Made by a program: the position numbers and the translations under genes. The notes beneath the pieces are model-generated. The model searched no databases. It was not told the origin of the DNA and was given only the letters and a program-made list of their open reading frames with translations. Positions 1-20,000 of a stretch of DNA of 20,000 nucleotides are shown piece after piece. The DNA comes from an uncultured virus (IMG/VR IMGVR_UViG_3300027828_000031). Lineage: Duplodnaviria > Heunggongvirae > Uroviricota > Caudoviricetes. Numbering within the stretch: the stretch's first letter is position 1; each line of letters starts with the position of its first letter. Location of the stretch: IMG/VR virus record IMGVR_UViG_3300027828_000031. One strand, 5' to 3'.

Positions 1-1994
1 ACTGTCTTAGGTCCGATACCAGATATAGCTTGCATACCAAATCTAATAATATTCTTATCTGTCATAGTAAACTTGGTTGCACCTGATGATACCAATGGTG
101 ATAATAGATTAATCTGTTCATTATTTCTGGTCATATCTTTAATAACAAGCATCTGTTTCTTTGGTTTATTGCCAACAATCAATGAATTTAATTCTGCTGT
201 ATAAAAACAATCTGCATATTTAGATTTAGCTATTGCACCACGTCTCATATTTTCTGCATATTCAACAGCATGAGCGCGGTTGAATCCATATCTACCAAAC
301 GTTCTGATTTGATCCTTTGCAATTTGAATAATTGAATCTTTTTGCTGTGGAGTTAGACTCTTGGTTGTGAAATTATGTTCCCTAGCCGCATCTCCTAACC
401 ATTCTAATTCACTGTCGATTAGAGCCATATTCTTTTTACCAACTGCCTTACGTAGAATATCTGCACGCCCAAGTGAACATCCTGTCATTTGTCTAACACG
501 ATAAATAATTTGTTCTTGGAATACCATAATACCAAATGTATCTTCTAGATATTCAGCTTCCTCAGGAAAGAGATATACTACCTTATCTTTACCAGATTTA
601 CGGTCGATCAGATGCTGTACCATAGTCTTACCATCAATTTCTGCATCCAAAGGTCCTGGCCTATATAATGCATTTCCCATTATTATATTCAATTGTGATT
701 GCATACCTATTTCTGGTAATAAATCATAATCAACCATTTGTGGTATAAAGCCCATCGATTCTGCTATACTATCTGCATCATAAAGATCTTTCATTAGTTG
801 CGTAAATCCACCAGATTCGCACTGAAATATTGATTTTGTATTTCCATCTCTAAATAACTGTTTTACATCATGATCTCCTAGAGGTGTTGATTTATATGCA
901 AATTCAGGATCATACCAGTGCTGTACTAGCTTCTCTGCGTCAAAATTAACATCTACAGTTCTAAGGCCTAATGCATCCAATTTAAGGTATCCAAAATCTT
1001 CTGCACGCATCATATCAAATTGCATCGCGGTCACATATTTACCACTACTATCTTTATAATAGATTAATGGCACATTTTCGCTCAACACCTTAGGTGATAT
1101 AATAACACCAGCGGCATGGACTGATGGACTCTTCTTGAGACCATATAGTCTCTTGATAACATTTATTACTCTATCGCCATCCCACTTTGATAGGAAAGTG
1201 AATCTTACTGAACATAAAGGATTAGGATCAGTCTTGATTGCGGCAAATTTCTCCATCTGTTCATCGTTTAACATATCAATGAATTTGTCATTATCAAATA
1301 ATTGACCATATGTTTGCTTATCTGCTATAACCTCAATATCTGGATACGATATATTATGTACCGCATTTATAAAATCTTCATTGTCTAGTAATTCTTCAAG
1401 GTCACAGCCTTCACCAAATGTATCTTTGACTTCATCTATGACCACTTCTGCGACTCTGGCTGATTTTAATACGTCACTTACTACTGAATTAGCACCAAAA
1501 GTCTGAAATGTGATTATCTGGGAAACCTTATCTGCACCATTCTTCCATGCAATATAATCTACTACAATATGGCGATAGCGTTGGGATATATCAAAATCAA
1601 TGTCTGGAGGGGCTATTCGTTCTGAGTTTAAGAATCTCTCGAAAATTAGCTTATATTCAATTGGACAAAATTCATGGATACCAATGGCATAACATGCTAT
1701 AGACCCACCCACAGATCCACGGCCTGGTCCTAATGGGATTACTCCATATTCGGGCAATTCATGACCGCGCAACTCACAGAATTCCTTAACACGTTTCTCA
1801 TCTCTACAGAAGTCATGAATGTCCCATACATTTAATATATAATCTTGAAAATTGTTTTCCTCTATAATTACACGTTTTTCGACTTCATATCTCTTAACTA
1901 CTTCATCATTCTGTTGCCAATTCGGTCCGTATTTCTCAACGAATCCCTTCTCGACTATGTGCATCAGGAATCTGCCTTGTTTGTTTATTTCCAT
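1..1994 (-). CDS. dnaE: DNA polymerase III alpha (DnaE) polymerase core lacking the PHP domain; 3' end runs off the window
   Basis: Translated by hand (not in ORF track). ATG at 1994 follows GGAGG at 2007-2003. Frame is open to position 1: MEINKQGRFLMHIVEKG...GPGRGSVGGS...FERFLNSERIAPPDIDFD...HAAGVII...GYLKLDALGLR...ALYRPGP...FQEQ...ADILRKAVGKK...YGFNRAH...IRFGMQAISGIG. All three catalytic Asp are present. Confidence 0.95.
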   Translation of the reverse strand, partial: MEINKQGRFLMHIVEKGFVEKYGPNWQQNDEVVKRYEVEKRVIIEENNFQDYILNVWDIHDFCRDEKRVKEFCELRGHELPEYGVIPLGPGRGSVGGSIACYAIGIHEFCPIEYKLIFERFLNSERIAPPDIDFDISQRYRHIVVDYIAWKNGADKVSQIITFQTFGANSVVSDVLKSARVAEVVIDEVKDTFGEGCDLEELLDNEDFINAVHNISYPDIEVIADKQTYGQLFDNDKFIDMLNDEQMEKFAAIKTDPNPLCSVRFTFLSKWDGDRVINVIKRLYGLKKSPSVHAAGVIISPKVLSENVPLIYYKDSSGKYVTAMQFDMMRAEDFGYLKLDALGLRTVDVNFDAEKLVQHWYDPEFAYKSTPLGDHDVKQLFRDGNTKSIFQCESGGFTQLMKDLYDADSIAESMGFIPQMVDYDLLPEIGMQSQLNIIMGNALYRPGPLDAEIDGKTMVQHLIDRKSGKDKVVYLFPEEAEYLEDTFGIMVFQEQIIYRVRQMTGCSLGRADILRKAVGKKNMALIDSELEWLGDAAREHNFTTKSLTPQQKDSIIQIAKDQIRTFGRYGFNRAHAVEYAENMRRGAIAKSKYADCFYTAELNSLIVGNKPKKQMLVIKDMTRNNEQINLLSPLVSSGATKFTMTDKNIIRFGMQAISGIGPKT

Positions 1995-2595: not shown

Positions 2596-2836
2596 TATTT
2601 CTCTCCTTATATGGTATTATATCATGTGTTACACCTGTATTGTCAGTAATAGTCAAATATATATCATCAATACTAAATGTTTCACTAGTATCGTCAACGA
2701 TTGCTTCGATTGATTCTCTTAAGCATTTAATATTATTGTCGTTTATTGCCTTACCCTTATATTGCTGTAGCACCGTTCTGATTTCTCCCTCTATATCTCT
2801 ATCGTCCGTTGGTGCTATGGTTATATTTAATCCCAT
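2537..2836 (-). CDS. hypothetical acidic protein between the two dnaE halves
   Basis: 99-aa ORF; GGAGGAG upstream of the ATG; overlaps the PHP gene stop. Confidence 0.65.
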   Translation of the reverse strand: MGLNITIAPTDDRDIEGEIRTVLQQYKGKAINDNNIKCLRESIEAIVDDTSETFSIDDIYLTITDNTGVTHDIIPYKERNNDEHNVRFVQKETEANSES

Positions 2837-3828
2837 TGTTCCACTCCTCCATTCTCAAACCACTCTGGCACACTGAATTTTGGTGTAAAGATTTCCTTTG
2901 ATGGTTTTAACACATTGCCATCACATCTGTTGGCTATAATCATGGTATTTTTAATATATTCATCTTTAAACGATGTTCTCAACTCATTTGCAGACAATAT
3001 ATGATATCCTTTCCCTTTAAAGCCAAATGTATTAGGGTGGTCAGTTTCCTTATTAAAATTGATTGCTAGGAGATTTGCATGTGCATCCATATCATCTTTA
3101 TATCTATAGTGCGCGTCTGTAGCCGCAATAATCGTAATACCCATTGATTCTGCTATGCCTACCTTCTGGTCGTTAACAGTATTCTCATCAGGTATGTCAT
3201 GATTATGATATTCTAATATAAAATCATCACCAAATCTAGACTGGAACCAGTTTAACATTGCCATGGTACCGCCAAAATCTTCCTTGAGTATCATTTGGTC
3301 AACTGGTCCACCAATACAGGCTCCACTCCAGATAATGTCGTCTCCATATTTGTCAATCAATTCCAAATCAATACGTGGCTCATGATAGAATCCTTCATAA
3401 TATGAGTACCACATCAATGAACATAGATTCTGGTAGCCCTTCCAATTCTTCGCCCATGCATTAAGATGATAATATGCCTCACCACGCCTCTCAAATGATT
3501 TATAATGTCTGGAATTAATCATGAGACCATTGTTCCATACCCAATCATCCTGATTATAATCTTGTTTTGGCTGTGCCGCCATATAGAATTCACATCCTAT
3601 AATATGCTTCATCCCAAATGCATAAGCCGCCAGTGCTAAATCACCATGTGCCGACATAACGCCATGATCTGTGGCAGTTATGATGCCATGTCCCCGTTCT
3701 TCTGCTATTTGAATAATATCTTCTTTAACTTTCTTGGGTTCATCATGATCCAGTGTTCTGATCATACCGTCTTTATTAGAATATTCCGTATGTAGATGCA
3801 TATCCACGAAATCAATCTTATTCTCCAT
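2827..3828 (-). CDS. dnaE: stand-alone DnaE PHP domain (N-terminal part of Pol III alpha, likely proofreading exonuclease)
   Basis: HLHTEYS-x2-DG, TDHG, GCEFY, YHL, EPRID, GACIGG, TDAHY, NT-x2-IA-x-RC and PKF-x-VP match the DnaE N-terminus; GGAGG SD upstream. Confidence 0.92.
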   Translation of the reverse strand: MENKIDFVDMHLHTEYSNKDGMIRTLDHDEPKKVKEDIIQIAEERGHGIITATDHGVMSAHGDLALAAYAFGMKHIIGCEFYMAAQPKQDYNQDDWVWNNGLMINSRHYKSFERRGEAYYHLNAWAKNWKGYQNLCSLMWYSYYEGFYHEPRIDLELIDKYGDDIIWSGACIGGPVDQMILKEDFGGTMAMLNWFQSRFGDDFILEYHNHDIPDENTVNDQKVGIAESMGITIIAATDAHYRYKDDMDAHANLLAINFNKETDHPNTFGFKGKGYHILSANELRTSFKDEYIKNTMIIANRCDGNVLKPSKEIFTPKFSVPEWFENGGVEQWD

Positions 3829-4544: not shown

Positions 4545-5063
4545 TTAGTTACCCGTACTTCCGAAGCCACTGCAATTTCGCTGTGTAATGCCTAAATTAT
4601 CATGGCAATTAACTTCTATTATATTTGGTGTACACTTTTTATGAATTACTAATTGTACTAATCTATCACCATGTTTTATCATAATCTTTTTATCACTTAA
4701 ATTTGCAATACAAGCAATCAATTCACCTGTATATCCTTCATCGATTATTGAATCACCAGATATCATTAATTTCTGATTGGTTGATGATCTACATTCTAAT
4801 CTACCATAATAGCCCATAGGCATCCTAACAAATATACCAGTTGGAATGTTGACCATTTGTTTCTTTGGTAACCAGAAGTACGGCATTGTGTCCATACTTG
4901 GTGAAGGCATGATCCCTAATGCAAAACCATCTGCTTGATGGATTCCAATATGCTCTTGTACTATAGATGGCAGATCATAGCCCACATCACCTTGTTTCTT
5001 GACATGTATTAAATCAAATTCTCTAGCCTCTTCCGTTCTGAACACCTTCAAATCTTGCATCAT
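4545..5063 (-). CDS. dut: trimeric dUTPase-family protein
   Basis: Motifs I GDVGYDL, II RSS, III IDEGYTGE, IV GDRLVQLVI, V R-x3-GFGSTG. Confidence 0.9.
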   Translation of the reverse strand: MMQDLKVFRTEEAREFDLIHVKKQGDVGYDLPSIVQEHIGIHQADGFALGIMPSPSMDTMPYFWLPKKQMVNIPTGIFVRMPMGYYGRLECRSSTNQKLMISGDSIIDEGYTGELIACIANLSDKKIMIKHGDRLVQLVIHKKCTPNIIEVNCHDNLGITQRNCSGFGSTGN

Positions 5064-7001
5064 CTATTCCTCCTCATGCCAATCTTTACAGACTCTTAAT
5101 TCTGCATCATAATTTCGTCTAGTTGGGTTCCAACATTCTTCAAATGAATAATACCCTATCACTCGATTCATTGCTGTTTTAATTGGTGCTCCACAATCAG
5201 GGCATTCTCTAGACTGTCCGATTATGTTTGTGTGTCCATTTATACATTTACCTGTTCTAAAACAGATCCCAACATGATTAACACCAGATTGAGCACACAA
5301 TTTAAATAGTTGATACATCATTTTTGCTGAATGCAGTCTATCTTCAAAGTTCAAATGAACAATACCACCACCTGAAATTATGCTCATGAATCTACCTGCG
5401 ATATCAATTCTATCGAAGATATCAACATCAGCAATTAATGGAACATATTGATTACTATAAAGATTGGTTGCTATGTCATATCCAAATGTTCTATCTTTCT
5501 TAACTAGTGTAACACAAGTTTGTTCACCTGGAATTTCTTCAATGTTATAAGCCCAACCATCTTCTTTGCGATATTCCTTTGTCTTTTCACGCATGAATGA
5601 GAATATATCTTGAGCAATCTCGGTGCCGTTATCATCTATGATATCATATCCAAGATATTCTACCATTTCCTTAGCACCCGTAATACCAAATGTTGAGAAC
5701 ATCGTATCCAATGAGAACCAGCCCGTACCGCCGCCTTCACGATCTCCGAAGAACTTGAGATATTTAGGTGTACGATCAATTCTCTTTTGTAAGACATCTA
5801 TTCTATGAATCTTTAATAATCTTCGTGCTGTATCCATTCTGTGTGTTAATAGCTCTTCTATAGACCCCTGACCTGCATTTGAGTCTAATGCTAATCTAGG
5901 TAGATTGATTGTTACTACTCTATGAGATCCAATATTAACCCCGCCATTTCCAAAGCTATCTGGTGACATATCCATATCATCTAGATCATTCTCATATCTA
6001 CAACACATTGCCAACTTGGATTTCTTGCCAAAATGGATATTGAAATTACCCAAATTCATATTGGTTTCTGCCGCCCACTGTGCGAACTCTTCATCGATGA
6101 ATTCTTTCTTATCGCCGATCGTGATGTTCATTGTTACTACTGGAAATCTGTATGGGAATCCAGTAATTGGATCACCATTTTTGAACCACTCACAGAATAT
6201 CTTCTGTAATTCCATGATATAGTCTATATCTGGCTTGCTACCATCAGGATAGAATACGTGACCAAATAGGCTATTTAGGCCAGATTCATCATAAATACCG
6301 AGATTGACGAATGGAGATTCTCCTTCAGATCTTGATGCGTCATTGAAAAGGACAACCAATGATTGATAATCTTGGATGATTTCTTTCCTATGGGCTGGAT
6401 TTCTAGGGTCGAGGTTCTCTTTTTGACAGAAATGTGCATACCACATGAAGAAGTCTGATGGTGCTGTTGCTCCTGCAAATTGTCTTGACATATCTCCAAT
6501 GAGCTTGTCGACCTGTGAGATAAATGATCGTCTGTGCTTCGCTGGTGTATTAATTGATGGTCCATAAGGTCTCCCTTCCACTACCATGCTTGTTAAACTG
6601 AATGCATAGCAATACGGTAGTTGTAATTTCTTGCCGTGTGCGTCATGGAAGTATAATTCTCCGTCCCAAATCGCCGCAATGTCTCTGTTTGCTTGGTCAA
6701 TACCATATCTCTTCACACCATAATACCATAATGTATGATATCCCAATAACTTCATAGGTCCATTCATAAGATGTGCAGAGTATGTTGTTGGATCTTGTAT
6801 TTCTGTAATATTGCTGTTCTGATCTTGATAGACATCTGATAGTCTATTTTGAAAAAATTCTTTACTTGAATTACCGATATCTAATTGATTGGGTGCAATC
6901 CCTGTTAATTTTAGTAGATCTAATCCTTTACTACTTTGTGTATATGAATCATATAATAATTTAAATTCTCTCTCTACAGTAATACCAGCTATTCTTGACA
7001 T
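5064..7001 (-). CDS. nrdD: anaerobic (class III) ribonucleoside-triphosphate reductase
   Basis: LYFHD, PYC, MCCR finger loop, TINLPRLA, Zn ribbon C-x3-H...CPDCG, glycyl-radical loop RVIGY. Start reassigned to ATG 7001 (AAAGGAG upstream); the 7160 start overlaps nrdG. Confidence 0.93.
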   Translation of the reverse strand: MSRIAGITVEREFKLLYDSYTQSSKGLDLLKLTGIAPNQLDIGNSSKEFFQNRLSDVYQDQNSNITEIQDPTTYSAHLMNGPMKLLGYHTLWYYGVKRYGIDQANRDIAAIWDGELYFHDAHGKKLQLPYCYAFSLTSMVVEGRPYGPSINTPAKHRRSFISQVDKLIGDMSRQFAGATAPSDFFMWYAHFCQKENLDPRNPAHRKEIIQDYQSLVVLFNDASRSEGESPFVNLGIYDESGLNSLFGHVFYPDGSKPDIDYIMELQKIFCEWFKNGDPITGFPYRFPVVTMNITIGDKKEFIDEEFAQWAAETNMNLGNFNIHFGKKSKLAMCCRYENDLDDMDMSPDSFGNGGVNIGSHRVVTINLPRLALDSNAGQGSIEELLTHRMDTARRLLKIHRIDVLQKRIDRTPKYLKFFGDREGGGTGWFSLDTMFSTFGITGAKEMVEYLGYDIIDDNGTEIAQDIFSFMREKTKEYRKEDGWAYNIEEIPGEQTCVTLVKKDRTFGYDIATNLYSNQYVPLIADVDIFDRIDIAGRFMSIISGGGIVHLNFEDRLHSAKMMYQLFKLCAQSGVNHVGICFRTGKCINGHTNIIGQSRECPDCGAPIKTAMNRVIGYYSFEECWNPTRRNYDAELRVCKDWHEEE

Positions 7002-7011
7002 ATTTTCTCCT

Positions 7012-7482
7012 TTAATAACGGATCTCATATAGTCCACCGTCACGACCTCTCCTCTTAAAGGCCTTTTGGTTTTCTGATGATGGAAATCCGTCTCTTTTTT
7101 GATTGTGTCTATACATACCATATTTAATAAAATCACATATATTTTCAAGATTTGTTCCAATTGATATACGTGTATATCCAGTATATAATGCTATGTTTCT
7201 TTTATAGATATTTCTGAGTTCTGATGCTAGCAGAAATAGATCAGCATATGATTGGTCAAGTGGTTCTCCGCCTAGAAATACTATCCAATCATTATCGGCA
7301 ATATTTACAGTCTTTACAATATCATCTATTGACATCTCAATGCCATCAAATGATTGTAGTTCTGGATTTTGGCAATCTTTACATCCAATATTGCATCCCT
7401 GAAACCATATTGTAGTTACTGCTTCATCCGTGAATGGTTTACCGTTAGTTATATCGAATTTATCTATTCTCGCTATCTTCAT
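7012..7482 (-). CDS. nrdG: anaerobic RNR activating enzyme (radical SAM)
   Basis: FQGCNIGCKDCQNPE (CxxxCxxC), LGGEPL, LYTGY, SSENQ; adjacent to nrdD. Confidence 0.93.
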   Translation of the reverse strand: MKIARIDKFDITNGKPFTDEAVTTIWFQGCNIGCKDCQNPELQSFDGIEMSIDDIVKTVNIADNDWIVFLGGEPLDQSYADLFLLASELRNIYKRNIALYTGYTRISIGTNLENICDFIKYGMYRHNQKRDGFPSSENQKAFKRRGRDGGLYEIRY

Positions 7483-8006
7483 TGGATTGCCTTCTTTATA
7501 TCAAATACAACATCTTGTAATGCCTGATTTCCATTGACTACGATCTTTGGTGAGATTTGTCTGATCATCGGCAATGTGACTTCATTATATTTCTCAAATC
7601 TGTTAACAATGATTGATAGTATATCATCATTTCTTTTTCTTTGTGATAGTCGATATCCGCAGACCTCCAGATCTGTGTCAACCAAGATAATAATTGGCTC
7701 TGAATTTGTAATGCTCTTTAAGAACAGATATTGATCATAGAATCTTGGAAATCCATCTAATACTATCATATTAGCTGTATTGGATGCCGCCACTATTTTA
7801 GTCTGTATCTGTGTTCTCATCGCCATTTCATTTGCTAGTCCGCCTCTAGCAAGACTATCCGCTGTATTTGTGTCGATTTTTGCTAATTCTCTTGCAATAT
7901 CACCTGATGATATGTAAATTCCTCCAAGGTCTGTTGAGAGTTGTCTGCCTATGGCTGATTTACCTGATCCAGGTGGTCCTACAATTACTAAAACTTGTGT
8001 ATTCAT
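7479..8006 (-). CDS. adk: adenylate kinase-family (deoxy)nucleoside monophosphate kinase, short LID
   Basis: P-loop GPPGSGKS, ISSGDIAR, LDGFPR, R-x-DD; substrate uncertain. Confidence 0.85.
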   Translation of the reverse strand: MNTQVLVIVGPPGSGKSAIGRQLSTDLGGIYISSGDIARELAKIDTNTADSLARGGLANEMAMRTQIQTKIVAASNTANMIVLDGFPRFYDQYLFLKSITNSEPIIILVDTDLEVCGYRLSQRKRNDDILSIIVNRFEKYNEVTLPMIRQISPKIVVNGNQALQDVVFDIKKAIQ

Positions 8007-8040
8007 AATTACTTGCTCCTTTCAAAATCGCCGCATAGTT

Positions 8041-8083: not shown

Positions 8084-8088
8084 GTAAA

Positions 8089-10764: not shown

Positions 10765-10766
10765 AT

Positions 10767-11459: not shown

Positions 11460-11462
11460 AAT

Positions 11463-11951: not shown

Positions 11952-11960
11952 AATAGCCTC

Positions 11961-13028
11961 CTATAGATATTGATTCCTAAGTTCTAGTGCATCTGTGATA
12001 TTCTTCAATGAATTGTCAATTGATTGCATCGTTTTATTTAGTTCTTCAATCATTTGGAATAAGTTAATATTTGTGCCAATATTACCACCACCGCCACGTG
12101 CTCCGCGTCTCTTAATCTCAGCATCAACTGATTCCTGTAATATCTGCGGTGGTCCTGAATAGTCTAACCCAGCCAATTTCCTCATCCATAGTGTATCTCT
12201 AGACGACCTAATTCCATCCTCTTTAGCTTTCTGGCTGTAATAGATATACTTATATTCAGTATATAGATGCTCAGGTATTGGATATTCTTCGATATTACCA
12301 TTGAGTGTCATGAAGTAATCGCATGGCAATGATTCAATAGACTCAAATAAATAAAGCCAGAATGTGTCCGCACTATCATCGCCGTAATACCATGTACTAT
12401 TCATATATGGCGGATCCAAGAATACTAGATCACCACCCTCGATATTATGCATTTGTAGAAATAAAAATTTGCTAACCTCATCATTATAGATAGATATTCT
12501 ATCTTTAAATGGCTCAAGTGCATTATGCCATGCCATTATATTAGATTCTACTGTGGATGGTGTTGCCATTCTTTTACCCCATGATGATACAAACTTGCCA
12601 TCTTTATATTTAACCTCACCACGCATGGAACCGCGAATTAAGGCATATAATAGATGATGTTTGTTGATATTATTGAGATTTATGATCTCGTCATCAGAGT
12701 CTGATACATCATTGTTATATTCAGCCTTTACAGCTTCATAGAATAGTCCGCTCATATTGATAATATTATATAATCGTTCATAGTTATCTATGATCTCACT
12801 AGGTCTATATACTAGATCTCTCCATAATGCCATCAGATCTTGGTTGATGTCATTGATTATAATATTGCCATTTATTTTGACTCTAGATAATATCTCTCGT
12901 AATTCTCCACCTGACCCGATAAATGGAATAATCAGATTGTTGACTTCTGCTGGGAAATTATCTACGATATCTGCCGCCTGTTTCCGTTTAGATCCTGCCC
13001 ATGGGATCCATCCTTTATATGCCATCAT
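11961..13028 (-). CDS. dam: Dam-family (D12 class) N6-adenine DNA methyltransferase
   Basis: IPWAGSK, PFIGSG (SAM-binding), NDIN, FLDPPY catalytic motif; target site may not be GATC. Confidence 0.88.
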   Translation of the reverse strand: MMAYKGWIPWAGSKRKQAADIVDNFPAEVNNLIIPFIGSGGELREILSRVKINGNIIINDINQDLMALWRDLVYRPSEIIDNYERLYNIINMSGLFYEAVKAEYNNDVSDSDDEIINLNNINKHHLLYALIRGSMRGEVKYKDGKFVSSWGKRMATPSTVESNIMAWHNALEPFKDRISIYNDEVSKFLFLQMHNIEGGDLVFLDPPYMNSTWYYGDDSADTFWLYLFESIESLPCDYFMTLNGNIEEYPIPEHLYTEYKYIYYSQKAKEDGIRSSRDTLWMRKLAGLDYSGPPQILQESVDAEIKRRGARGGGGNIGTNINLFQMIEELNKTMQSIDNSLKNITDALELRNQYL

Positions 13029-13034
13029 ATCCTC

Positions 13035-13343
13035 CTATAATTTTGCAAATTCGTCTTCACGAGCCTCATAGATCTCACCAAGTACATCACCTACTGCACG
13101 CAATATTCGCTTCTGCTCATCTTTGGTGAATACTAAATGTGATGAATTGTCCCCATGATATTGATCACATAGTGTATATGTTGGATTCTTGCTGACAATT
13201 CTTAATGCTATACCACTACTGTCCATTGATGTTTCACATTCAATGAGTTTTTCAGTCATGGTCTTAATCTTCTCCATGTCATTAAATAATTGCTTTGATG
13301 CTTTTACCCTAGTCTCCATATATTCTAATGTTTTGATATCCAT
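13035..13343 (-). CDS. hypothetical protein
   Basis: 102-aa ORF; AGGAGG SD; TAATG coupling to the upstream gene. Confidence 0.7.
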   Translation of the reverse strand: MDIKTLEYMETRVKASKQLFNDMEKIKTMTEKLIECETSMDSSGIALRIVSKNPTYTLCDQYHGDNSSHLVFTKDEQKRILRAVGDVLGEIYEAREDEFAKL

Positions 13344-13600
13344 TACTTTTCCTCCTTATAACATTTATTACATATATGTTGTTTTAGTTTAGTATGATAG
13401 CATTTAGTTGGTTGATCGCATATATAACATGGATAAAATAATCTCTGTTGCATAATCACACTACCATCAAAACCCTTGCAATATCCAGATTTACGTAATG
13501 TGAACCCAAGCTGGCACTTCAAATCTGGCCTATGGTGCCTCATAATCTGTAATGCATTTGTACATCTAGCACACTTAGAACACCATATCATATCATACAT
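13343..13600 (-). CDS. small Cys-rich putative zinc-binding protein
   Basis: CxxCxxC...C...C plus CxxC...CxxC; GGAGG SD; TAATG coupling on both sides. Confidence 0.65.
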   Translation of the reverse strand: MYDMIWCSKCARCTNALQIMRHHRPDLKCQLGFTLRKSGYCKGFDGSVIMQQRLFYPCYICDQPTKCYHTKLKQHICNKCYKEEK

Positions 13601-15060: not shown

Positions 15061-15670
15061 TCTCTTTCACTTCCTTCCATCTATCCTTATTGATACTATG
15101 GATAGCGGTAGTGAATTGCTTAAGTGTCATAATGACATAAACTTTGCCTTTGAATTTAAAATAGACACAACATTTTGGTTGCTTATAAAAATTCTTGATG
15201 TTTAGTCTATCAGCCATTTCGATTTCTGAAATATAAAGGTTCTTTATCTTGTTATTCATCTGGATTTCTAACATCAATGGCAGTGTTGCGTCTGCATGGA
15301 TCATCTTGAGCATAGTTGTATTATTAATCATAACAAATCCAAATGGTACCTTTGGTCTAGAGAATGCAAAGAACCATTCTGCTCCATAGATTTCACATTC
15401 ATCTTCAATTTGTTCTATATCTTCGATTGGTATTTTGTGTCTAGGTTTAAGCTCTGATGGAACAATTCTCTTTTTTGCCTCACCTAGCCAATTACAGGGA
15501 CCAGTGCCCTCATTGTCTCTAATATCTCCCCATCCAAACCTTGAATTTGAACCGGAATATGGTACTACATACATATTAAGGGACTTAGCTATCTTCTTTT
15601 CGAAAGCCTTGCCCCTCTTGCGATTATTGGCATTTTTCCGTGCCAATGGACTCTTTTTCTTCTTTGCCAT
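15041..15670 (-). CDS. PD-(D/E)xK nuclease, Hjc-like Holliday junction resolvase
   Basis: RGKAFEKKIA...SGS...GDI...EAK catalytic pattern; located between SSB and helicase. Confidence 0.7.
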   Translation of the reverse strand: MAKKKKSPLARKNANNRKRGKAFEKKIAKSLNMYVVPYSGSNSRFGWGDIRDNEGTGPCNWLGEAKKRIVPSELKPRHKIPIEDIEQIEDECEIYGAEWFFAFSRPKVPFGFVMINNTTMLKMIHADATLPLMLEIQMNNKIKNLYISEIEMADRLNIKNFYKQPKCCVYFKFKGKVYVIMTLKQFTTAIHSINKDRWKEVKENAISQD

Positions 15671-15677
15671 TTTATTG

Positions 15678-15711
15678 CCTCCTAGATAAGGAGGGTGCCA
15701 CTAGGGCACCC
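15678..15711 (-). promoter_or_regulatory. double hairpin after ssb: GC-rich stem-loop (possible weak terminator) plus anti-SD hairpin
   Basis: GGGTGCC-CTAGT-GGCACCC (15711-15693) and CCTCCT-TATCT-AGGAGG (15694-15678); the second covers the resolvase SD. Confidence 0.55.
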
Positions 15712-15717
15712 ATTAGA

Positions 15718-16923
15718 TTATTCAATACCTAAGAATGTTGTTAGATGTTGTAACTGCTCATCTGTCATAGCATAGATATTAGTTACACCATTACATTCTC
15801 TTGCTAGTAGATCGATTACTGCTTGATATCCTTTGCCTGATACCTCAGGATGTGATTGAATTGACACGTTTATCTTTTGAATCACTTGGTTCTTATCAAA
15901 CGCCGTATCCGGTTGTCCAACCTGTGTTTGTGGTTGAGCCGTAGCCGCTGGTGCTGTCTGCTGTGGCTGTGTTGGCGGTGTTTGAGTTGCTACAGTACCA
16001 GTTGGTTGTGGTGTAATTGGTTGACTAGGAACTGTTGCTGTTGGCGCTTGCTGTACTGGAGTTCCTTGTTGCGGGTTATTGAAATTTGGTACTCCATCAA
16101 TCATAACACCACGTAGATTTACCATAATAATTTGTGCACACGCTTTAGTTTCATTTTGACGTTTAGATGTTGACAGCCAATCTATAAAACTAGGATCTTG
16201 TGCATTAATTTGTTCAAGTGTTGCACCTTTATGCTTAGTATTTGGCATTACATGTGCTAATGCTTCTTTTAGAGATTTTGGATATTCTAGTTCTAGAGGT
16301 TTAATGAATTCTTCCCAATTCAATCCAACTTCTAATACTTTAGCTTGCATTGTTTCTACAGTGTCTGGTGCATAAACTTCTGCTAAAATAGGCAATTGTG
16401 GTTGTAGTGAGTCATAACCTGGATAAACATCAGTAGGTTGTGGCATCGCTGATGATCCAATGTATTCCGTACTGAACATATCACCCTTAGTACCTGTCTT
16501 GGTTGCTATAAAATTCATTGCTTCAATATTCTGTTTCGCTTTTGCAAGTGGTGACAGTGATTTAAATAGATCTGTACCTGATTTTAAAATTCGAACTGAT
16601 TGTGTAGAATAATCCCAAACTGGCATTGCCATACGTAATCTGCTTGCATGTTTGCCACCTGTTTTACAAACTGGACAATTTTCCATGCCTGGGCAGATTA
16701 TTTCTCTATAAAATGCACCGCCATTAGGGTCATTTTTGCGTGCTTCATTTTGTATTGGATGACTATAGAACCCATGAGGCTGTTCTCCTAAATCCGTTCT
16801 AAGTAATGGTCGTACAATTTTTGGTTCATTGTACTCAAGTTTGATCTCTTGACCAGAACCCCCACCACCGTTTGACATCTTACCAGTACCATCAATTACA
16901 TCCCAAGTATTAATTCCTGACAT
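15718..16923 (-). CDS. ssb: single-stranded DNA-binding protein (gp32-like OB fold with Zn site) with extra C-terminal domains
   Basis: H...CPGMENCPVC Zn site, VWDY...VRILK..TDLF, TKTGT..STEY pattern typical of gp32-like phage SSBs; replication context. Confidence 0.65.
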   Translation of the reverse strand: MSGINTWDVIDGTGKMSNGGGGSGQEIKLEYNEPKIVRPLLRTDLGEQPHGFYSHPIQNEARKNDPNGGAFYREIICPGMENCPVCKTGGKHASRLRMAMPVWDYSTQSVRILKSGTDLFKSLSPLAKAKQNIEAMNFIATKTGTKGDMFSTEYIGSSAMPQPTDVYPGYDSLQPQLPILAEVYAPDTVETMQAKVLEVGLNWEEFIKPLELEYPKSLKEALAHVMPNTKHKGATLEQINAQDPSFIDWLSTSKRQNETKACAQIIMVNLRGVMIDGVPNFNNPQQGTPVQQAPTATVPSQPITPQPTGTVATQTPPTQPQQTAPAATAQPQTQVGQPDTAFDKNQVIQKINVSIQSHPEVSGKGYQAVIDLLARECNGVTNIYAMTDEQLQHLTTFLGIE

Positions 16924-16941
16924 TCTAAATTCCTCCTCTTA

Positions 16942-17169
16942 TTAATTAAATATAAACATCACGTCATAGACATAGATGTCATCGCTATATTTGTGTTCCA
17001 TCTTTTCATCATATGTATTTAACATATAATCCATCTTCTGATCTAAATTTTGAGTATTTGTAATTAACTCAATACCTGATGGTAGCATTACTGCCACTAC
17101 CATATAGACCATATTAACACCTGATTCCATCTTTGCCTTTGCATCTTCAAATTTCTTTCTAATATGCAT
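16942..17169 (-). CDS. small hypothetical phage protein
   Basis: 75 aa; AAGGAGG SD; ELI-x-N-x2-NL-x2-K-x2-Y-x3-TYD pattern recalled from Firmicute phage hypotheticals. Confidence 0.7.
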   Translation of the reverse strand: MHIRKKFEDAKAKMESGVNMVYMVVAVMLPSGIELITNTQNLDQKMDYMLNTYDEKMEHKYSDDIYVYDVMFIFN

Positions 17170-17214
17170 TAATCTTCCTCCTTACAGTTTGATCCTGCAA
17201 CGTACTTATACGCT

Positions 17215-17245
17215 AAAGGAGAGACCCTTATTAAGTCCCTCCCTC
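17215..17245 (-). terminator. stem-loop, possible intrinsic terminator or processing site
   Basis: GAGGGAGGGACTT-AATAA-GGGTCTCTCCTTT on the minus strand, several G-U pairs, only a short U run. Confidence 0.4.
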
Positions 17246-17260
17246 GCTGTTATTTCTAAC

Positions 17261-18313
17261 TTATGCTAGTTGGTTCTTCCATTTAACGTATATGTTTATG
17301 TGACCAGATAATTCGCTTGGCTTAACTCTGATCTCATTAACTCCCGCTCCGACACTTTTGAAGATATCTTTATGTTTGTTAGCAATATATTTGTTTGATA
17401 CACATGCCACATAAAGTCTAAATCCATCCTCTAAAATTTCTAATGGATCGAAAAATTTTGGATCTGTACATTCATTATCAATATAAGATTCTTGGATGTT
17501 GTATTTACCAGTATTTTCACCAATACACTTATATCTGATAATGCCAGTAGCCATGAATTCAAAATCAACAACTTCCATATACATCTTATGGTCTATACTA
17601 AAGAAGATATGCCCATTCTGATATTTAACTTCGACTTGATCTAAATATTCCTGTACCAGACCTTTGTGCACTAACATTGGCTGTCGAGAATCACTATAGA
17701 CTAGAATATGTGTGCCCTCATCTTTGATGAATTCATATCTACTGCCTTTGGACAATGGCCCAAATCCCTTATGCATTGTCACATATTCTAGACCATCATT
17801 GGTAATATTTGCCATTGCATCAATTTCAACTTGATTACCTGATCTATGTGACATTCTTTGATTGACATCAGCTTTGAGCTTACTGTACATTTCTGCGGTC
17901 TTTTTTGATGGACCACAATCTCTACCACGTCCTAATAATTGGATTAGATAACTTACATCCAACAATAATTGCTCACCAAGGTCATATTGCATAATCTGCG
18001 CTAATAATCCCTTTGAAGCTTTGTACATACCTTCTCGTTGTTTACTAGTAAATACCAGATTTGTCTCTATGTTCATCTTATTGTCCTCCTGATTTTTATT
18101 TGTGGTTTCAGCATAATATTCATCCTCTGTTATGCAGTCATGTGATTCTAGATTATCACTATGTTCGCAACCATTGCTAGTCTCAGTCCAAGCACTACCA
18201 CTACCTCTATGGTGCCCAAGCCAGTCTATACCATCTTCATAACAATGTCTGAATTCATATTTGTGTCCACAATGTGGACATCTGGCATATTTCCATTCAC
18301 CACGTGTCTCCAT
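17261..18313 (-). CDS. hypothetical protein with N-terminal CxxC zinc-ribbon-like segment; probable second in-frame start at 18076
   Basis: CPHCG near the N-terminus; internal AGGAGG (18090-18085) precedes in-frame ATG (Met80). Confidence 0.7.
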   Translation of the reverse strand: METRGEWKYARCPHCGHKYEFRHCYEDGIDWLGHHRGSGSAWTETSNGCEHSDNLESHDCITEDEYYAETTNKNQEDNKMNIETNLVFTSKQREGMYKASKGLLAQIMQYDLGEQLLLDVSYLIQLLGRGRDCGPSKKTAEMYSKLKADVNQRMSHRSGNQVEIDAMANITNDGLEYVTMHKGFGPLSKGSRYEFIKDEGTHILVYSDSRQPMLVHKGLVQEYLDQVEVKYQNGHIFFSIDHKMYMEVVDFEFMATGIIRYKCIGENTGKYNIQESYIDNECTDPKFFDPLEILEDGFRLYVACVSNKYIANKHKDIFKSVGAGVNEIRVKPSELSGHINIYVKWKNQLA

Positions 18314-18495
18314 TATTGTCCTCCTAATTTTATTTTTACAAATTTATCTTTTACTGGCTTGAATGCTTCCTTTAGATCTTCTTCAAATTCGGTCATAATT
18401 TCTCTGCCTTTAATATCATTAGCTGAATGATATAACTTACATCTACATTCTTCACCATCGCAGATTCCCGTCATACCCCAAACACAATCATTCAT
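18313..18495 (-). CDS. small Cys-rich hypothetical protein
   Basis: 60 aa with four Cys in the first 20 residues; TAATG coupling to the next gene. Confidence 0.6.
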   Translation of the reverse strand: MNDCVWGMTGICDGEECRCKLYHSANDIKGREIMTEFEEDLKEAFKPVKDKFVKIKLGGQ

Positions 18496-18507
18496 ATTAT
18501 TGTCCTT

Positions 18508-19668
18508 CTAAATCATAGCTTTCTCGTCCGTCACTATCATATCTTGTCTTTCTGCTCCAGTACCAAGTCCTATCACAGGACAACCTGTAATATTTGTCAC
18601 TGTTTTCATGAACTGAGCAGTTTTGCCTGTGATTTCTTCTACTCTACCGAGCATCTTCCAATCAATATATTGGGCGAAGTTGATGAATATACCAGTTGGT
18701 CGGTTGAGCTTGGCTACATAATCCAGTCTGTTCCAATTCATTTCAAATACTCTGCGAGTCTTCTTAGTTACTGTTGTTTGCTCACCAAACTCCACTTCAT
18801 CAGGTGCACCACACTCTGCCTTAACTTGATCCCAGCTTATTTCATTGGAACCATCATAATCGCCTGAGTACCGTTCATCACCGAGATTGGTCGAGCTACT
18901 AATTCTGATTGGATAAGGTCGCATTACCATATAAACTTCAATATTTGGGTATGTTGGTGATATGCCACAATCAGCCAATAATTGACCTGCATGGCATTGT
19001 CTAGATGTAGTATGTGGGTAATTCAACCCATAGTTAATATCTAGGTCTGTACCTTGACTGCCCTCAATGATCACATCTGTGCCAATATCTAATGATGCGT
19101 TGATATGATCCATATAATCCTGTATTACTACATTTTCTAGGAGTGCACGACCCTGATCCACTGTAATCCCGAGATATCCATGCTCTGGATACTCTCTATA
19201 TAGGTGAAGCTCTTCCATAAGGTCCCAGAATAACATTGCCTGTCTCATAGCTTTATCTGCTAATGCCGCACCACATCCTTTGAATGTAGATCCTGATTTC
19301 AATTTCTTCTTCTCGTACTCACAATGATGATTGAGTATTACTGCCGCTCTAGGGTGTACATATACCTTGCGGTCACCCAAGATATCTTTGTACTTGATAA
19401 TCTCATCTGCTAAAATTGACGGAGTAATTGCTGATCCAGGCCCAATTATTAGAGTTGCATTTAGATTGAGAATTGATGTCGGCAAATGCTGTACCATTGT
19501 AGCCTCACCATTCACTACCGTAGTATGTCCTGCATTTGACATGAAATTATTGATTGCTATGAATGGACGATCATATTGCGATGCGAACCAATCTACTACC
19601 TTACCTTTCCCACATGAGCCAGCTTGACTATCGAGAACTATTCTTACTGTACCTAATTTTGAAATCAT
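18508..19668 (-). CDS. purZ: PurZ-like N6-succino-2-amino-2'-deoxyadenylate synthase (adenylosuccinate synthetase fold)
   Basis: DSQAGSCGKGK (Ser18 where PurA has the catalytic Asp of GDEGKGK), NAGHT, GSTFKGCGAA, EGSQG, YPHTTSR, RPYPIRI, TTVTKKTRRV, NFAQY in place of the PurA TKLD guanine-binding motif. Confidence 0.82.
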   Translation of the reverse strand: MISKLGTVRIVLDSQAGSCGKGKVVDWFASQYDRPFIAINNFMSNAGHTTVVNGEATMVQHLPTSILNLNATLIIGPGSAITPSILADEIIKYKDILGDRKVYVHPRAAVILNHHCEYEKKKLKSGSTFKGCGAALADKAMRQAMLFWDLMEELHLYREYPEHGYLGITVDQGRALLENVVIQDYMDHINASLDIGTDVIIEGSQGTDLDINYGLNYPHTTSRQCHAGQLLADCGISPTYPNIEVYMVMRPYPIRISSSTNLGDERYSGDYDGSNEISWDQVKAECGAPDEVEFGEQTTVTKKTRRVFEMNWNRLDYVAKLNRPTGIFINFAQYIDWKMLGRVEEITGKTAQFMKTVTNITGCPVIGLGTGAERQDMIVTDEKAMI

Positions 19669-19669
19669 A

Positions 19670-19987
19670 TTATACCTCCAAATGTTTATCTAGATGATTT
19701 TTAACTGACAACTGTATTGATTCTTCATTGGTATGATTGCCTACCATTATAGTACACCATTTGATATTGCCTAAGAAATTCAATTTAATTTCAGCTTGTC
19801 TCATGAATCTCTCATACATATCTTGCTGTGCCATTGATGTTTCAATTCCATATTTTACATCCTGATAATCTGGCTTGTTGCGTTTTAAAGATTTTTCAAA
19901 GAAATCTTCTGTTCCTTTTAGATTAATAATAAGGATGTTAACATCTTGTCTTGTAGCGATATCTCCAAGTATTTGACAATAGTTCAT
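19670..19987 (-). CDS. hypothetical protein
   Basis: 105-aa ORF directly upstream of purZ; TAATG overlap with an upstream gene outside the window. Confidence 0.65.
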   Translation of the reverse strand: MNYCQILGDIATRQDVNILIINLKGTEDFFEKSLKRNKPDYQDVKYGIETSMAQQDMYERFMRQAEIKLNFLGNIKWCTIMVGNHTNEESIQLSVKNHLDKHLEV

Positions 19988-20000
19988 TAGTCCATCAAAT

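What the first reader, a model, noticed from the sequence alone, without database searches (positions are those of the whole stretch)
18508..19668. The PurA-like gene carries PurZ signatures: candidate 2-aminoadenine (Z-base) genome phage
Seen: the P-loop reads GSCGKGK (Ser18, codon TCA at 19617-19615) and the NTP-base motif reads N330-F-A-Q333 (18681-18670). Established: PurA has GDEGKGK (E. coli Asp13) and TKLD (GTP); PurZ of S-2L, phiVC8 and SH-Ab 15497 has Ser there to accept the 2-amino group of dGMP, plus an NFxN-type motif for ATP/dATP; PurZ0 keeps an Asp and uses GTP. Inference: this is an ATP-type PurZ feeding dZTP synthesis. The Cys after Ser and the Gln in NFxQ are variants I do not recognise from characterised members. 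An AT-rich phage with anaerobic RNR and Firmicute-like signals would be an unusual setting.
Basis: partly seen in the sequence, partly recalled or inferred. Interest (0 to 1): 0.9.

Follow-up and report, generated by a model that had tools for sequence, protein, structure and literature searches.

The report
PurZ gene in sediment Bacillota-type phage
This phage gene carries the signature residues of PurZ, the enzyme that lets some phages swap adenine for 2-aminoadenine (Z) in their DNA, and it sits with an unusual set of helper genes in a phage lineage whose one cultured member has DNA that resists cutting in a Z-like way.

Summary
ORF 18508-19668(-) is an intact 386-aa adenylosuccinate-synthetase homologue with Ser18 (GSCGKGK) and N330-F-A-Q333-Y334.

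It lies on the PurZ side of a 97/93 split from PurZ0 and PurA. NFAQY is exactly the motif of cyanophage S-2L PurZ. Cys19 is common in the family, so neither variant is new.

The phage is a ~68-kb, 36% GC myovirus from marine sediment with Bacillota-type lysis genes. In ~58 kb of it and a 92% relative, and in four (near-)complete relatives, I found no DatZ, MazZ/DUF550, DpoZ or PrimPol.

All of them keep:
- a Dut-like gene that groups with DutZ (dATP/dGTP pyrophosphatase of PurZ0 phages);
- an adenylate-kinase-like gene;
- a two-piece DnaE polymerase.

The only cultured relative with this module is Bacillus phage vB_BpsS-140. Its DNA was reported uncut by DraI, HindIII, PstI and BamHI, although I count sites for all four. 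Synthetic dZ-DNA resists the same four enzymes.

The closest cellular relatives are Nudix-coupled genes in Bacillota MAG chromosomes.

Verdict: a real PurZ-type gene in a variant pathway. Z in the virion DNA is likely (~0.6) but unmeasured.

The parts
18508..19668 (-). PurZ-type succino-amino-deoxyadenylate synthetase, 386 aa. Key residues: Ser18, Cys19, Ala16, T298/T299, N330-F-A-Q-Y334.
19670..19999 (-). C-terminal part of a thymidylate-kinase-like P-loop kinase lying directly upstream of purZ. Its stop is 1 nt before the purZ ATG, and its 5' end runs off the window. The full form is 246 aa in the 92% relative L001.
   Evidence: Window ORF. L001:9259-9999 hits phrog_761 'thymidylate kinase' at 1.3e-15. 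The window piece matches it at 3e-66.
4545..5063 (-). Dut-like trimeric dUTPase-fold protein, 172 aa. Candidate DutZ, a dATP/dGTP pyrophosphatase.
   Evidence: Pfam dUTPase 5.5e-18. Best cultured matches are vB_BpsS-140 dut (2e-25) and Microbacterium PurZ0-phage Duts (1e-20), against about 5e-9 and weaker for the ordinary phage dUTPases listed. It groups with Wayne DutZ and Archimedes gp55 at 94/97.
7479..8006 (-). Short adenylate-kinase-like NMP kinase, 175 aa. Candidate dZMP kinase (inferred).
   Evidence: Pfam ADK 9.7e-15 and TIGR01351 3.4e-22, below its cut-off. Present in 4 of 4 (near-)complete relatives and in vB_BpsS-140.
5064..7160 (-). Anaerobic (class III) ribonucleoside-triphosphate reductase NrdD. 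The listed TTG start overlaps nrdG, so the true start is probably further in.
   Evidence: Pfam NRDD 4.4e-80. Present in 3 of 4 relatives.
7012..7482 (-). NrdG activase (radical SAM).
   Evidence: phrog_626 1.4e-20; Fer4_12 and Radical_SAM.
2827..3828 (-). N-terminal PHP-domain piece of a two-piece DnaE-type (C-family) DNA polymerase.
   Evidence: PHP 1.5e-27; phrog_405 positions 41-330.
3..1994 (-). Polymerase core of the same DnaE, profile positions 336 onward. It runs off the window and is 990 aa in G001.
   Evidence: It is split from the PHP piece in 4 of 4 relatives and in vB_BpsS-140, where it is annotated dnaE_1/dnaE_2 (PMC6375668 Table 3).
11961..13028 (-). D12-class N6-adenine DNA methyltransferase with a DPPY motif. 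A caveat for full A-to-Z replacement.
   Evidence: Pfam MethyltransfD12 5e-19. Absent from 4 of 4 relatives. All 5 phage-database matches are Geobacillus or C. difficile phage records.
8089..10764 (-). DnaG-DnaB fused primase-helicase (replication-module context).
   Evidence: The only full-length cultured match is vB_BpsS-140.

Best explanation
The ORF encodes a PurZ-type enzyme. By inference from its residues it condenses dGMP with aspartate, using ATP or dATP, to give N6-succino-2-amino-2'-deoxyadenylate. Host adenylosuccinate lyase would turn this into dZMP.

The phage supplies an alternative helper set, and each role below is inferred:
- Class III RNR makes dNTPs.
- A DutZ-like pyrophosphatase would convert dGTP to dGMP (the PurZ substrate) and dATP to dAMP (removing the competitor).
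- An Adk-like kinase, and possibly the Tmk-like kinase next to purZ, would take dZMP to dZDP.
- A two-piece DnaE polymerase would copy the genome from a dATP-poor, dZTP-rich pool.

The result would be phage DNA with 2-aminoadenine in place of much or all adenine, in a Bacillota-type phage of anoxic marine sediment.

Shown here: the gene, its signature residues, its phylogenetic side, and the conserved gene set. Inferred: every enzymatic activity and the presence of Z.
For: Signature residues:
- S18 aligns with phiVC8 S14, T298 with T262, F331 and Y334 with F295 and Y298. The preprint 10.1101/2025.10.22.683976 (section 4 read) names these as the dGMP 2-amino contacts and the ATP-adenine contacts.
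- NFAQY is identical to the S-2L PurZ motif, and S-2L PurZ uses ATP or dATP (PMC8342488, abstract and passages).
- PurZ0 reads TMLD/SMAD and PurA reads TKLD at this position.

Homology and placement:
- PDB sequence hits: phiVC8 PurZ 1.1e-26, S-2L PurZ 3.7e-25, PurZ0 7vf6 only 2.9e-15.
- The best NCBIfam model is PurZ NF038379.
- In the careful tree, PurA plus PurZ0 separate from all other PurZ-like rows at 97/93. The window sits in a clade with vB_BpsS-140 at 99/88.

Conserved gene set:
- The Dut-like gene is in 8 of 8 related records that are at least 90% complete.
- Dut, Adk, split DnaE and primase-helicase are each in 4 of 4 (near-)complete relatives.
- The Dut groups with characterised DutZ at 94/97. 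DutZ hydrolyses dATP and dGTP (PMC12884076, Results read).

Cultured relative:
- vB_BpsS-140 DNA was a 'non cutter' for DraI, PstI, HindIII and BamHI. DraI cut the other 11 phages (PMC6483233 text and S3 Table).
- The 38 kb I hold of that genome has 17, 4, 6 and 3 sites for these enzymes.
- dZ-DNA is scored R for all four and PR for EcoRI (PMC12944874 Table S1).
Against: - No DatZ, MazZ, DUF550/DUF5664, DmtZ/NDT, DpoZ or PrimPol was found. I looked in the window, in G001, in 10 kb of L001, in four relatives, and in a Pfam scan of 61 ORFs of complete genome G003.
- The NCBIfam PurZ score of 186 bits is under the curated 300-bit cut-off.
- Ala16 replaces the aromatic residue (phiVC8 F12) that is said to help accommodate the 2-amino group.
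- The Dut-like protein keeps all canonical dUTPase motifs, and I found no column separating it from ordinary dUTPases. It may be just a dUTPase.
- An apparently intact N6-adenine methyltransferase sits in this genome.
- The nearest cellular relatives (47-52% identity) are chromosomal genes of Bacillota MAGs. The papers I read report natural Z-DNA only from phages, so the signature alone does not prove a Z genome.
- Deep tree nodes linking this clade to the characterised PurZ clade are weak, at 64-65.
- The restriction data are one gel-based study. PstI, BamHI and HindIII also failed on several other phages there. EcoRI cut completely, whereas dZ PCR DNA is partly resistant. I counted sites in only 38 of 55 kb.
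Confidence: 0.62

Rival explanations
1. The enzyme is an active PurZ, but the phage DNA is not fully, or not at all, Z-substituted. The module would mainly reshape the purine dNTP pool (drain dGMP and dATP), or give partial A/Z hybrid DNA, because nothing dedicated destroys dATP and the DnaE polymerase is not selective.
For: No DatZ or DpoZ was found. An N6-adenine methyltransferase with DPPY is present in this genome. Close homologues sit in bacterial chromosomes beside or fused to Nudix genes. EcoRI cut vB_BpsS-140 DNA completely.
Against: S-2L also lacks a selective polymerase and still makes Z-DNA through pool control (PMC8342488 passages). PurZ0 phages manage with DutZ instead of DatZ (PMC12884076). 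DraI resistance of vB_BpsS-140 despite 17 sites argues for heavy modification. The methyltransferase is absent from 4 of 4 relatives.
Confidence: 0.22
2. It is an ordinary auxiliary PurA: IMP + Asp + GTP gives adenylosuccinate, boosting AMP supply during infection.
For: The best solved-structure match by sequence and by fold is Pyrococcus horikoshii PurA. Scores for NCBIfam purA models are not far below the PurZ model.
Against: The PurA Asp (Salmonella D14 in GDEGKGK) is Ser, and TKLD is NFAQ. The PurA outgroup is separated at 100/100 and 97/93. 134 of 137 sampled relatives carry Ser; the 3 Asp rows are the two PurA outgroups and one representative.
Confidence: 0.04
3. It works like PurZ0, a GTP-dependent dGMP-succinylating enzyme, because its helper gene (DutZ-like) is the one typical of PurZ0 phages.
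For: DutZ is found in all 98 PurZ0 genomes in PMC12884076. The window's Dut groups with DutZ.
Against: PurZ0 keeps Asp in T/S-M-x-D, while the window has N-F-A-Q-Y. PurZ0 lies on the other side of the 97/93 branch. The hit to PurZ0 structure 7vf6 is far weaker than to PurZ. In 14 of 79 viral loci a Dut-like gene lies within 10 kb of a PurZ-like gene placed on the PurZ side in the tree; 9 of them read N/Q-F/Y-x-N/Q-Y and 5 read T-F-x-D-Y.
Confidence: 0.06

Closest known systems
PurZ of cyanophage S-2L (PDB 7ODX), Vibrio phage phiVC8 (6FM1/6FKO/6TNH) and Acinetobacter phage SH-Ab 15497
   Same: Short-form adenylosuccinate-synthetase fold (Foldseek 3.7e-27 and 4.7e-27). Ser in the P-loop, TTVTKK, 'TSR', and N-F-x-x-Y with the same NFAQY as S-2L. 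Same side of the 97/93 split.
   Different: Only 30-33% identity. P-loop reads A-G-S-C instead of F/Y-G-S-T. It ends in GKGK, as PurA does, rather than GKGL. A ~30-residue insert precedes TTVTKK. There is no neighbouring datZ or mazZ and no DpoZ or PrimPol. It is not inside their clade, and the linking nodes are at 64-65.
Bacillus phage vB_BpsS-140 (MH884512), gene annotated purA
   Same: Closest cultured phage: 39% identity over 97% of the protein. Same module of PurZ-like, UvsW, primase-helicase, adk, dut, sigma factor and two-piece DnaE. Same PurZ clade at 99/88 and same Dut clade at 99/97.
   Different: A siphovirus of an aerobic alkaliphile with no NrdDG. P-loop V-G-S-E, motif NFANY, and A instead of T at the T298 position. 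Its DNA composition has never been reported in the four papers that name it (listing; passages read in two of them).
PurZ0 + DutZ (+DmtZ, DUF5664) system of Arthrobacter phage Wayne and Gordonia phages Ghobes/Archimedes (PDB 7VF6)
   Same: Uses a Dut-family enzyme rather than DatZ/MazZ. The window's Dut groups with theirs.
   Different: PurZ0 keeps the GTP-type Asp (TMLD/SMAD) and 'TSS'. It has DpoZ-1 (PolA) and often DmtZ, and none of these was found here.
Nudix-coupled or Nudix-fused PurZ-like genes in chromosomes of uncultured Bacilli/Clostridia MAGs (L199-L201)
   Same: 47-52% identity. L199 has the same A-G-S-C P-loop and NFAQY. They are nearest the window's phage clade inside a 99* set.
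   Different: The context is cellular: Mur ligase, LigD, SDR, methionine gamma-lyase, ABC transporters, adenylosuccinate lyase. The partner is a Nudix hydrolase, not Dut. No phage replication genes lie within 8 kb.

Membership tests
PurZ (succino-amino-deoxyadenylate synthetase) | Homology and fold of adenylosuccinate synthetase, short form | tested here: met
   PF00709 3.3e-39. AF2 model pLDDT 93.3. Foldseek hits to 5k7x, 6tnh, 7odx and 7vf6 at E 4e-30 to 1e-25.
PurZ (succino-amino-deoxyadenylate synthetase) | Ser in place of the PurA P-loop Asp (E. coli Asp13, phiVC8 S14) | tested here: met
   Ser18 aligns with phiVC8 S14 and Salmonella PurA D14. It is invariant in 40 of 40 aligned relatives.
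PurZ (succino-amino-deoxyadenylate synthetase) | ATP-type base pocket: Phe and Tyr (phiVC8 F295, Y298) replacing the PurA T-K-L-D | tested here: met
   F331 and Y334. The NFAQY motif is identical to S-2L PurZ.
PurZ (succino-amino-deoxyadenylate synthetase) | Other dGMP 2-amino contacts: phiVC8 T262 and aromatic F12 | tested here: inconclusive
   T298 is kept. The F12 position is Ala16, as in 43 of 137 sampled rows.
PurZ (succino-amino-deoxyadenylate synthetase) | Falls in the PurZ clade, apart from PurZ0 and PurA | tested here: met
   The careful LG+C20 tree of 60 rows has a 97/93 branch separating PurA+PurZ0 from the rest. The window is not inside the phiVC8/S-2L/SH-Ab subclade. Only two bacterial PurA served as outgroup; no archaeal PurA was available.
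PurZ (succino-amino-deoxyadenylate synthetase) | Score over the curated cut-off of NCBIfam NF038379 | tested here: not met
   186 bits against a cut-off of 300. It is still the best-scoring model.
PurZ (succino-amino-deoxyadenylate synthetase) | Z-cluster synteny with datZ and mazZ/DUF550 | tested here: not met
   No homologue was found by phmmer with phiVC8, S-2L and SH-Ab queries, or by Pfam/PHROGs. About 10 kb of the window's own genome was not seen.
PurZ (succino-amino-deoxyadenylate synthetase) | Catalyses dGMP + Asp + (d)ATP to dSMP; virion DNA contains Z | not testable with these tools
   Needs an enzyme assay and nucleoside LC-MS.
PurZ0 | GTP-type Asp retained in T/S-M-x-D; 'TSS' | tested here: not met
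   The window has NFAQ and 'TSR'. The hit to 7vf6 (= Archimedes PurZ0) is only 2.9e-15.
PurA (adenylosuccinate synthetase) | P-loop GDEGKGK Asp and T-K-L-D GTP motif | tested here: not met
DutZ (dATP/dGTP pyrophosphatase of Z phages), for ORF 4545-5063 | dUTPase fold, and membership of the DutZ clade rather than ordinary phage dUTPases | tested here: met
   Pfam dUTPase. 20 PurZ-linked Duts separate from 8 ordinary phage dUTPases at 94/97. The outgroup sample is small, and no diagnostic residue was found.
DutZ (dATP/dGTP pyrophosphatase of Z phages), for ORF 4545-5063 | Hydrolyses dATP and dGTP to dNMP | not testable with these tools
   Needs an assay.

The most novel reading that the evidence does not exclude
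A whole lineage of Bacillota phages, including these ~60-70-kb anaerobic-sediment myoviruses and the cultured Bacillus phage vB_BpsS-140, replicates Z-substituted genomes. It would do so with a two-piece C-family (DnaE) polymerase and a helper set of DutZ-like pyrophosphatase, phage Adk-like dZMP kinase and (in some members) a HAD-type nucleotidase, with no DatZ, MazZ or DpoZ. Its purZ would have been exchanged with Nudix-purZ modules that sit in Bacillota chromosomes. That would be the first Z-DNA in phages of Bacillota, the first C-family Z-replicase, and a hint that some bacteria make dZ nucleotides themselves.
Probability: 0.4. Interest if true: 0.8.

Novelty: new variant of a known kind. 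Interest (0 to 1): 0.6.

Why it matters
Z-DNA phages are the only natural departure from the A:T/G:C chemistry. Proven cases are few, and the papers I read place them in Pseudomonadota, Cyanobacteriota and Actinomycetota hosts.

This clade would extend Z-DNA to Bacillota and to anoxic sediments. It would show an ATP-type PurZ working with the DutZ route that was so far tied to PurZ0. It also raises the question of whether a DnaE-type replicase copes with, or selects, dZTP.

It is directly testable. vB_BpsS-140 is deposited in a culture collection (DSM 29700, per PMC6483233). It was sequenced on PacBio, and its published restriction pattern already looks like dZ-DNA.

New dZTP-handling kinases and polymerases also interest people who build DNA with non-standard bases.

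Tried and rejected
- **PurZ-less relatives.** I looked for close relatives lacking PurZ, to test whether Dut and Adk travel with PurZ or with the replication backbone. An IMG/VR scan with a primase-helicase alignment gave 79 loci, of which only 10 are full-length relatives. Eight show PurZ in the locus. One is cut by its contig end, and in one PurZ lies more than 10 kb away. The 69 distant loci have none. The test is uninformative.
- **Residue signature for the Dut.** I looked for columns separating PurZ-linked Duts from ordinary dUTPases. None passed my criteria.
- **Fold search.** It cannot separate PurA, PurZ and PurZ0; all score within E 4e-30 to 1e-25.
- **Genome-collection scan.** The single-protein scan gave 4 loci.
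- **Whole genome.** None is held for the window. I used G001, which covers window 1-19107, plus L001.
- **Unreadable sources.** The supplement of PMC12884076 could not be read, so I do not know whether vB_BpsS-140 is in their PurZ tree. Their main text does not name it as a Z phage: 'Bacillus' occurs once, in another context. The 2023 PurZ0 paper ('...from Archaea to phage') is not in the library. What I say of PurZ0 rests on PMC12884076 and on my alignment.
- **Sequencing runs.** Four runs hold 72-99% of the sampled words, and all are labelled marine sediment metagenome, kept as contigs. Contigs cannot show base modification, so I laid no reads.
- **7vf6.** I first took it from memory to be the SH-Ab enzyme. 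One search shows it is Archimedes PurZ0.
- **Methyltransferases and Z.** I found no statement on whether N6-adenine methyltransferases act on Z in PMC12944874.
Full report
**Observation.** Window 18508-19668 on the minus strand is one open frame of 386 codons. A GGAGG lies 7 nt before the ATG, and the stop of the upstream ORF lies 1 nt before it. Residues 17-23 are G-S-C-G-K-G-K, with Ser18 encoded by TCA at 19617-19615. Residues 330-334 are N-F-A-Q-Y, with N330-Q333 encoded at 18681-18670.

**What the protein is.** It matches Pfam Adenylsucc_synt at 3.3e-39. It matches PHROG 1211, labelled '2-aminooxy adenylosuccinate synthetase', at 3.1e-63.

Among solved structures the best sequence matches are:
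- Pyrococcus horikoshii PurA, 6.2e-33;
- phiVC8 PurZ, 1.1e-26;
- S-2L PurZ, 3.7e-25;
- 7vf6, which one search shows to be the Archimedes PurZ0, 2.9e-15.

The best NCBIfam model is PurZ (NF038379, 186 bits). This is below its curated cut-off of 300, and archaeal-type and bacterial purA models follow at 170 and 140 bits. An AlphaFold2 model built on 40 relatives is confident (pLDDT 93.3). Fold search returns PurA, PurZ and PurZ0 chains at nearly equal scores, so fold does not discriminate.

**Residues.** I aligned 137 family members and references. The positions compare as follows:

| Position | Window | PurZ (phiVC8 / S-2L / SH-Ab) | PurZ0 (Wayne / Archimedes) | PurA (Salmonella) |
|---|---|---|---|---|
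| P-loop Ser/Asp | Ser18 | phiVC8 S14 | Ser | D14 |
| TTVTKK Thr | T298 | phiVC8 T262 | Thr | Gly |
| NTP-base motif | NFAQY | NFCNY / NFAQY / NFANY | TMLD / SMAD | TKLD |
| Aromatic before G-S | Ala16 | F / Y / F | F / F | W |
| Residue 223 context | TSR | TSR | TSS | TSS |

[quoted passage not shown] F331 and Y334 of the window align with F295 and Y298.
S-2L PurZ uses ATP or dATP (PMC8342488, abstract and passages).
- Cys after Ser occurs in 46 of 137 rows, and Gln333 in 44 of 137.
- One real difference stands out. The aromatic residue at the phiVC8 F12 position is Ala16 here, as in 43 of 137 rows, mostly this clade.

**Phylogeny.**
- A quick tree of 137 rows and a careful LG+C20 tree of 60 rows agree.
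- The two bacterial PurA form the outgroup (100/100).
- PurZ0, plus a pair of metagenomic sequences, lies next to the outgroup.
- A 97/93 branch separates these from all other PurZ-like sequences.
- The window groups with its 92%-identical relative L001 (100/100), and then with metagenomic phages.
- It lies in an 18-row clade with Bacillus phage vB_BpsS-140 (99/88).
- The link between that clade and the phiVC8/S-2L/SH-Ab clade is weak (64-65).
- I had no archaeal PurA for rooting.

**How common it is.**
- The word-indexed search found 1046 relatives at E <= 1e-5 among 3433 candidates. The best 119 others share 54-61% identity and sit on contigs up to 69 kb.
- The exhaustive search found 4580 representatives at E <= 1e-3.
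- A 2026 paper states that over 2000 viruses are predicted to hold dZ-DNA by PurZ homology, most of them without proof (PMC13128860, Introduction passage).
- In 50,697 cultured-phage records, 218 match, all below 60% identity. The best is vB_BpsS-140 at 39%.

**The phage.** G001, a 47.5-kb virus record, contains window positions 1-19107 exactly. L001, from a 35.9-kb relative with a 92%-identical PurZ, adds 10 kb beyond the window's right end. Together with the window they show:
- A myovirus: large terminase, portal, sheath and baseplate.
- Lysis and surface genes of Gram-positive type: BhlA-type holin, Amidase_2 endolysin, LysM/PG_binding, and a Cu_amine_oxidN1 protein.
- DNA ligase, RNase H and a HIRAN protein.
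- ThyX and a Tmk-like kinase directly upstream of purZ.

Other host and habitat evidence:
- The protein's own contig is 68,269 bp.
- Four sequencing runs that hold 72-99% of the sampled words are all labelled marine sediment metagenome.
- The methyltransferase's 5 phage-database matches are all Geobacillus or C. difficile phage records.
- The only 4 matches in 185,579 species genomes are in MAGs labelled Bacilli, Clostridium or Clostridia.
- A Bacillota-type anaerobic host is therefore likely, though it is not shown.

**Helper genes.**

Absent:
- DatZ, MazZ, DUF5664-DUF550, DpoZ, PrimPol and PurB queries taken from phiVC8, S-2L, SH-Ab 15497, Wayne and Archimedes found nothing in the window, in G001, or in four (near-)complete relatives. 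These are G003, G005 and G009 (with terminal repeats) and G010 (92% complete).
- A Pfam scan covered 61 of the 109 ORFs called in complete genome G003. These were the minus-strand and neighbouring non-structural ORFs. Three boundary-spanning ORFs and the structural block were left out. It shows no HD, MazG, DUF550, NDT or PolA domain.

Present in 4 of 4 relatives and in vB_BpsS-140:
- a Dut-like gene;
- an Adk-like gene;
- a DnaE split into a PHP piece and a core piece;
- the fused primase-helicase;
- UvsW.

NrdD is in 3 of 4. The Dut-like gene is in 8 of 8 related records that are at least 90% complete. It is missing only from two records of 71% and 50% completeness.

**The Dut-like gene.**
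- Its best cultured matches are vB_BpsS-140 dut (2e-25), then the Duts of Microbacterium, Micrococcus and Arthrobacter PurZ0 phages (1e-20 to 1e-11).
- The ordinary phage dUTPases listed score about 5e-9 and weaker.
- A careful tree of 28 rows included Wayne DutZ and Archimedes gp55; Archimedes gp55 I take to be a DutZ homologue (inference from its match to Wayne DmtZ-DutZ, and its grouping). In it the 20 PurZ-linked Duts separate from 8 ordinary phage dUTPases at 94/97. The window-clade Duts form a 99/97 group.
- DutZ of Ghobes and Wayne hydrolyses dATP and dGTP to the monophosphates, with a tenfold preference for dATP (PMC12884076, Results and Table 1 read).
- That paper finds dutZ in all 98 PurZ0 genomes, and says PurZ phages mostly carry DatZ.
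- In my sample, 14 of 79 viral loci have a Dut-like gene within 10 kb of a PurZ-like gene placed on the PurZ side in the tree, and 5 of 79 have DatZ. Of the 14, 9 read N/Q-F/Y-x-N/Q-Y and 5 read T-F-x-D-Y. So the DutZ route is not confined to PurZ0.
- Caveat: the window's Dut keeps all the usual dUTPase motifs, and I found no diagnostic column.

**A published phenotype of the cultured relative.**
- Akhwale et al. digested 12 phage DNAs. vB_BpsS-140 was a 'non cutter' for DraI, PstI, HindIII and BamHI, a 'poor cutter' for KpnI, and a 'complete cutter' for EcoRI. DraI cut the other 11 phages (PMC6483233, results text and S3 Table).
- The 38 kb of its 55-kb genome that I hold contains 17 DraI sites (18.75 expected from shuffles), 6 HindIII, 4 PstI, 3 BamHI, 3 KpnI and 19 EcoRI sites.
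- On PCR DNA with 98.6% dZ, DraI, HindIII-HF, BamHI-HF and PstI-HF are scored resistant and EcoRI-HF partially resistant (PMC12944874, section 3.1 and Table S1).
- The match is suggestive, not proof. Several other phages in that study also resisted PstI, BamHI and HindIII, and other A or T modifications could block DraI.
- The passages I read in PMC6483233 and PMC6375668 do not connect this phage to 2-aminoadenine. 'Aminoadenine' has no occurrence in PMC6375668.

**Cellular relatives.**
- The three full-length MAG homologues share 47-50% identity. L199 has the same A-G-S-C P-loop and NFAQY.
- They lie among ordinary cellular genes (Mur ligase, LigD, SDR, methionine gamma-lyase, ABC transporters, adenylosuccinate lyase). 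They are preceded by (L199) or fused to (L201) a Nudix hydrolase (30 of 42 ORFs scanned).
- In a quick tree they form a 100-supported group next to the window's phage clade, inside a 99* set.
It cuts both ways: it ties the clade to Bacillota, but it shows that the signature also occurs where Z-DNA has not been reported.

**Most likely mechanism.** Every step below is inferred.
1. Class III RNR makes dGTP and dATP.
2. The DutZ-like enzyme gives dGMP and dAMP.
3. PurZ converts dGMP, aspartate and ATP/dATP into dSMP.
4. Host PurB gives dZMP.
5. The Adk-like (and/or Tmk-like, or host) kinase and host NDP kinase give dZTP.
6. The two-piece DnaE inserts Z opposite T from a dATP-depleted pool.

A 168-aa HAD-type phosphatase just outside the window might remove dAMP. 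It lies at G001 26388-26894, matches NF046079 at 6.9e-12, and is present in G003 and G005. The N6-adenine methyltransferase in this genome alone is unexplained under full substitution.

**Verdict.** It belongs to an uncharacterised, Bacillota-linked subclade with a variant helper set. I put the odds that the virion DNA carries Z at about 0.6. I rate it a new variant of a known kind, of moderate to good interest because a cultured relative makes it testable.

Noticed in passing
window 1936-2836 (-), between the DnaE pieces at 2827-3828 and 3-1994: The phage DnaE is encoded in two pieces, a PHP domain and a polymerase core. In this genome two ORFs of 99 and 219 aa with no family match sit between them. 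The split is shared by G003, G005, G009, G010 and vB_BpsS-140. In G009 the two pieces abut without inserted ORFs.
   Followed up: partly
G001 26388-26894 (-) = L012:6388-6894, about 1.5 kb left of the window start: A 168-aa HAD-type phosphatase-like protein: NCBIfam NF046079 at 6.9e-12, an Atlas structural neighbour labelled 5'-nucleotidase, and PHROG 1238. It is conserved in G003 and G005 but was not found in G009 or G010. It could dephosphorylate dAMP made by the Dut-like enzyme.
   Followed up: partly
window 11961-13028 (-): A D12-class N6-adenine methyltransferase with an intact DPPY motif sits in a putative Z-genome phage. It is absent from 4 of 4 relatives. Its only phage-database relatives are in Geobacillus virus E3 and C. 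difficile phages. Whether such enzymes act on Z is not stated in the papers I read.
   Followed up: partly
L199:7537-9062 and L201:5353-6894 (MAG contigs labelled uncultured Bacilli): Chromosomal Nudix hydrolase genes are coupled (12-nt gap) or fused to a PurZ-signature gene in Bacillota MAGs, among ordinary cellular genes. L200 has an adenylosuccinate lyase gene 4.5 kb away.
   Followed up: partly
L075 (IMG/VR contig of 41 kb): A PurZ-like gene with an F-G-S-E P-loop and an M-F-L-D-Y motif lies with DatZ, a DUF5664/DUF550-like gene and a DnaE-type polymerase plus primase-helicase. In the careful tree it groups with PurZ0 at 93/79. This is another combination not described in the papers I read.
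   Followed up: no
window 5064-7160 and 7012-7482 (-): The longest NrdD frame (TTG start) overlaps the end of nrdG by about 150 nt, and the Pfam match begins at residue 162. The real start is probably an internal codon.
   Followed up: no
window 15718-16923 (-): A 401-aa protein has a weak SSB-family match at its N-terminus and a long Pro/Gln/Thr-rich low-complexity middle. It is conserved across the clade.
   Followed up: no
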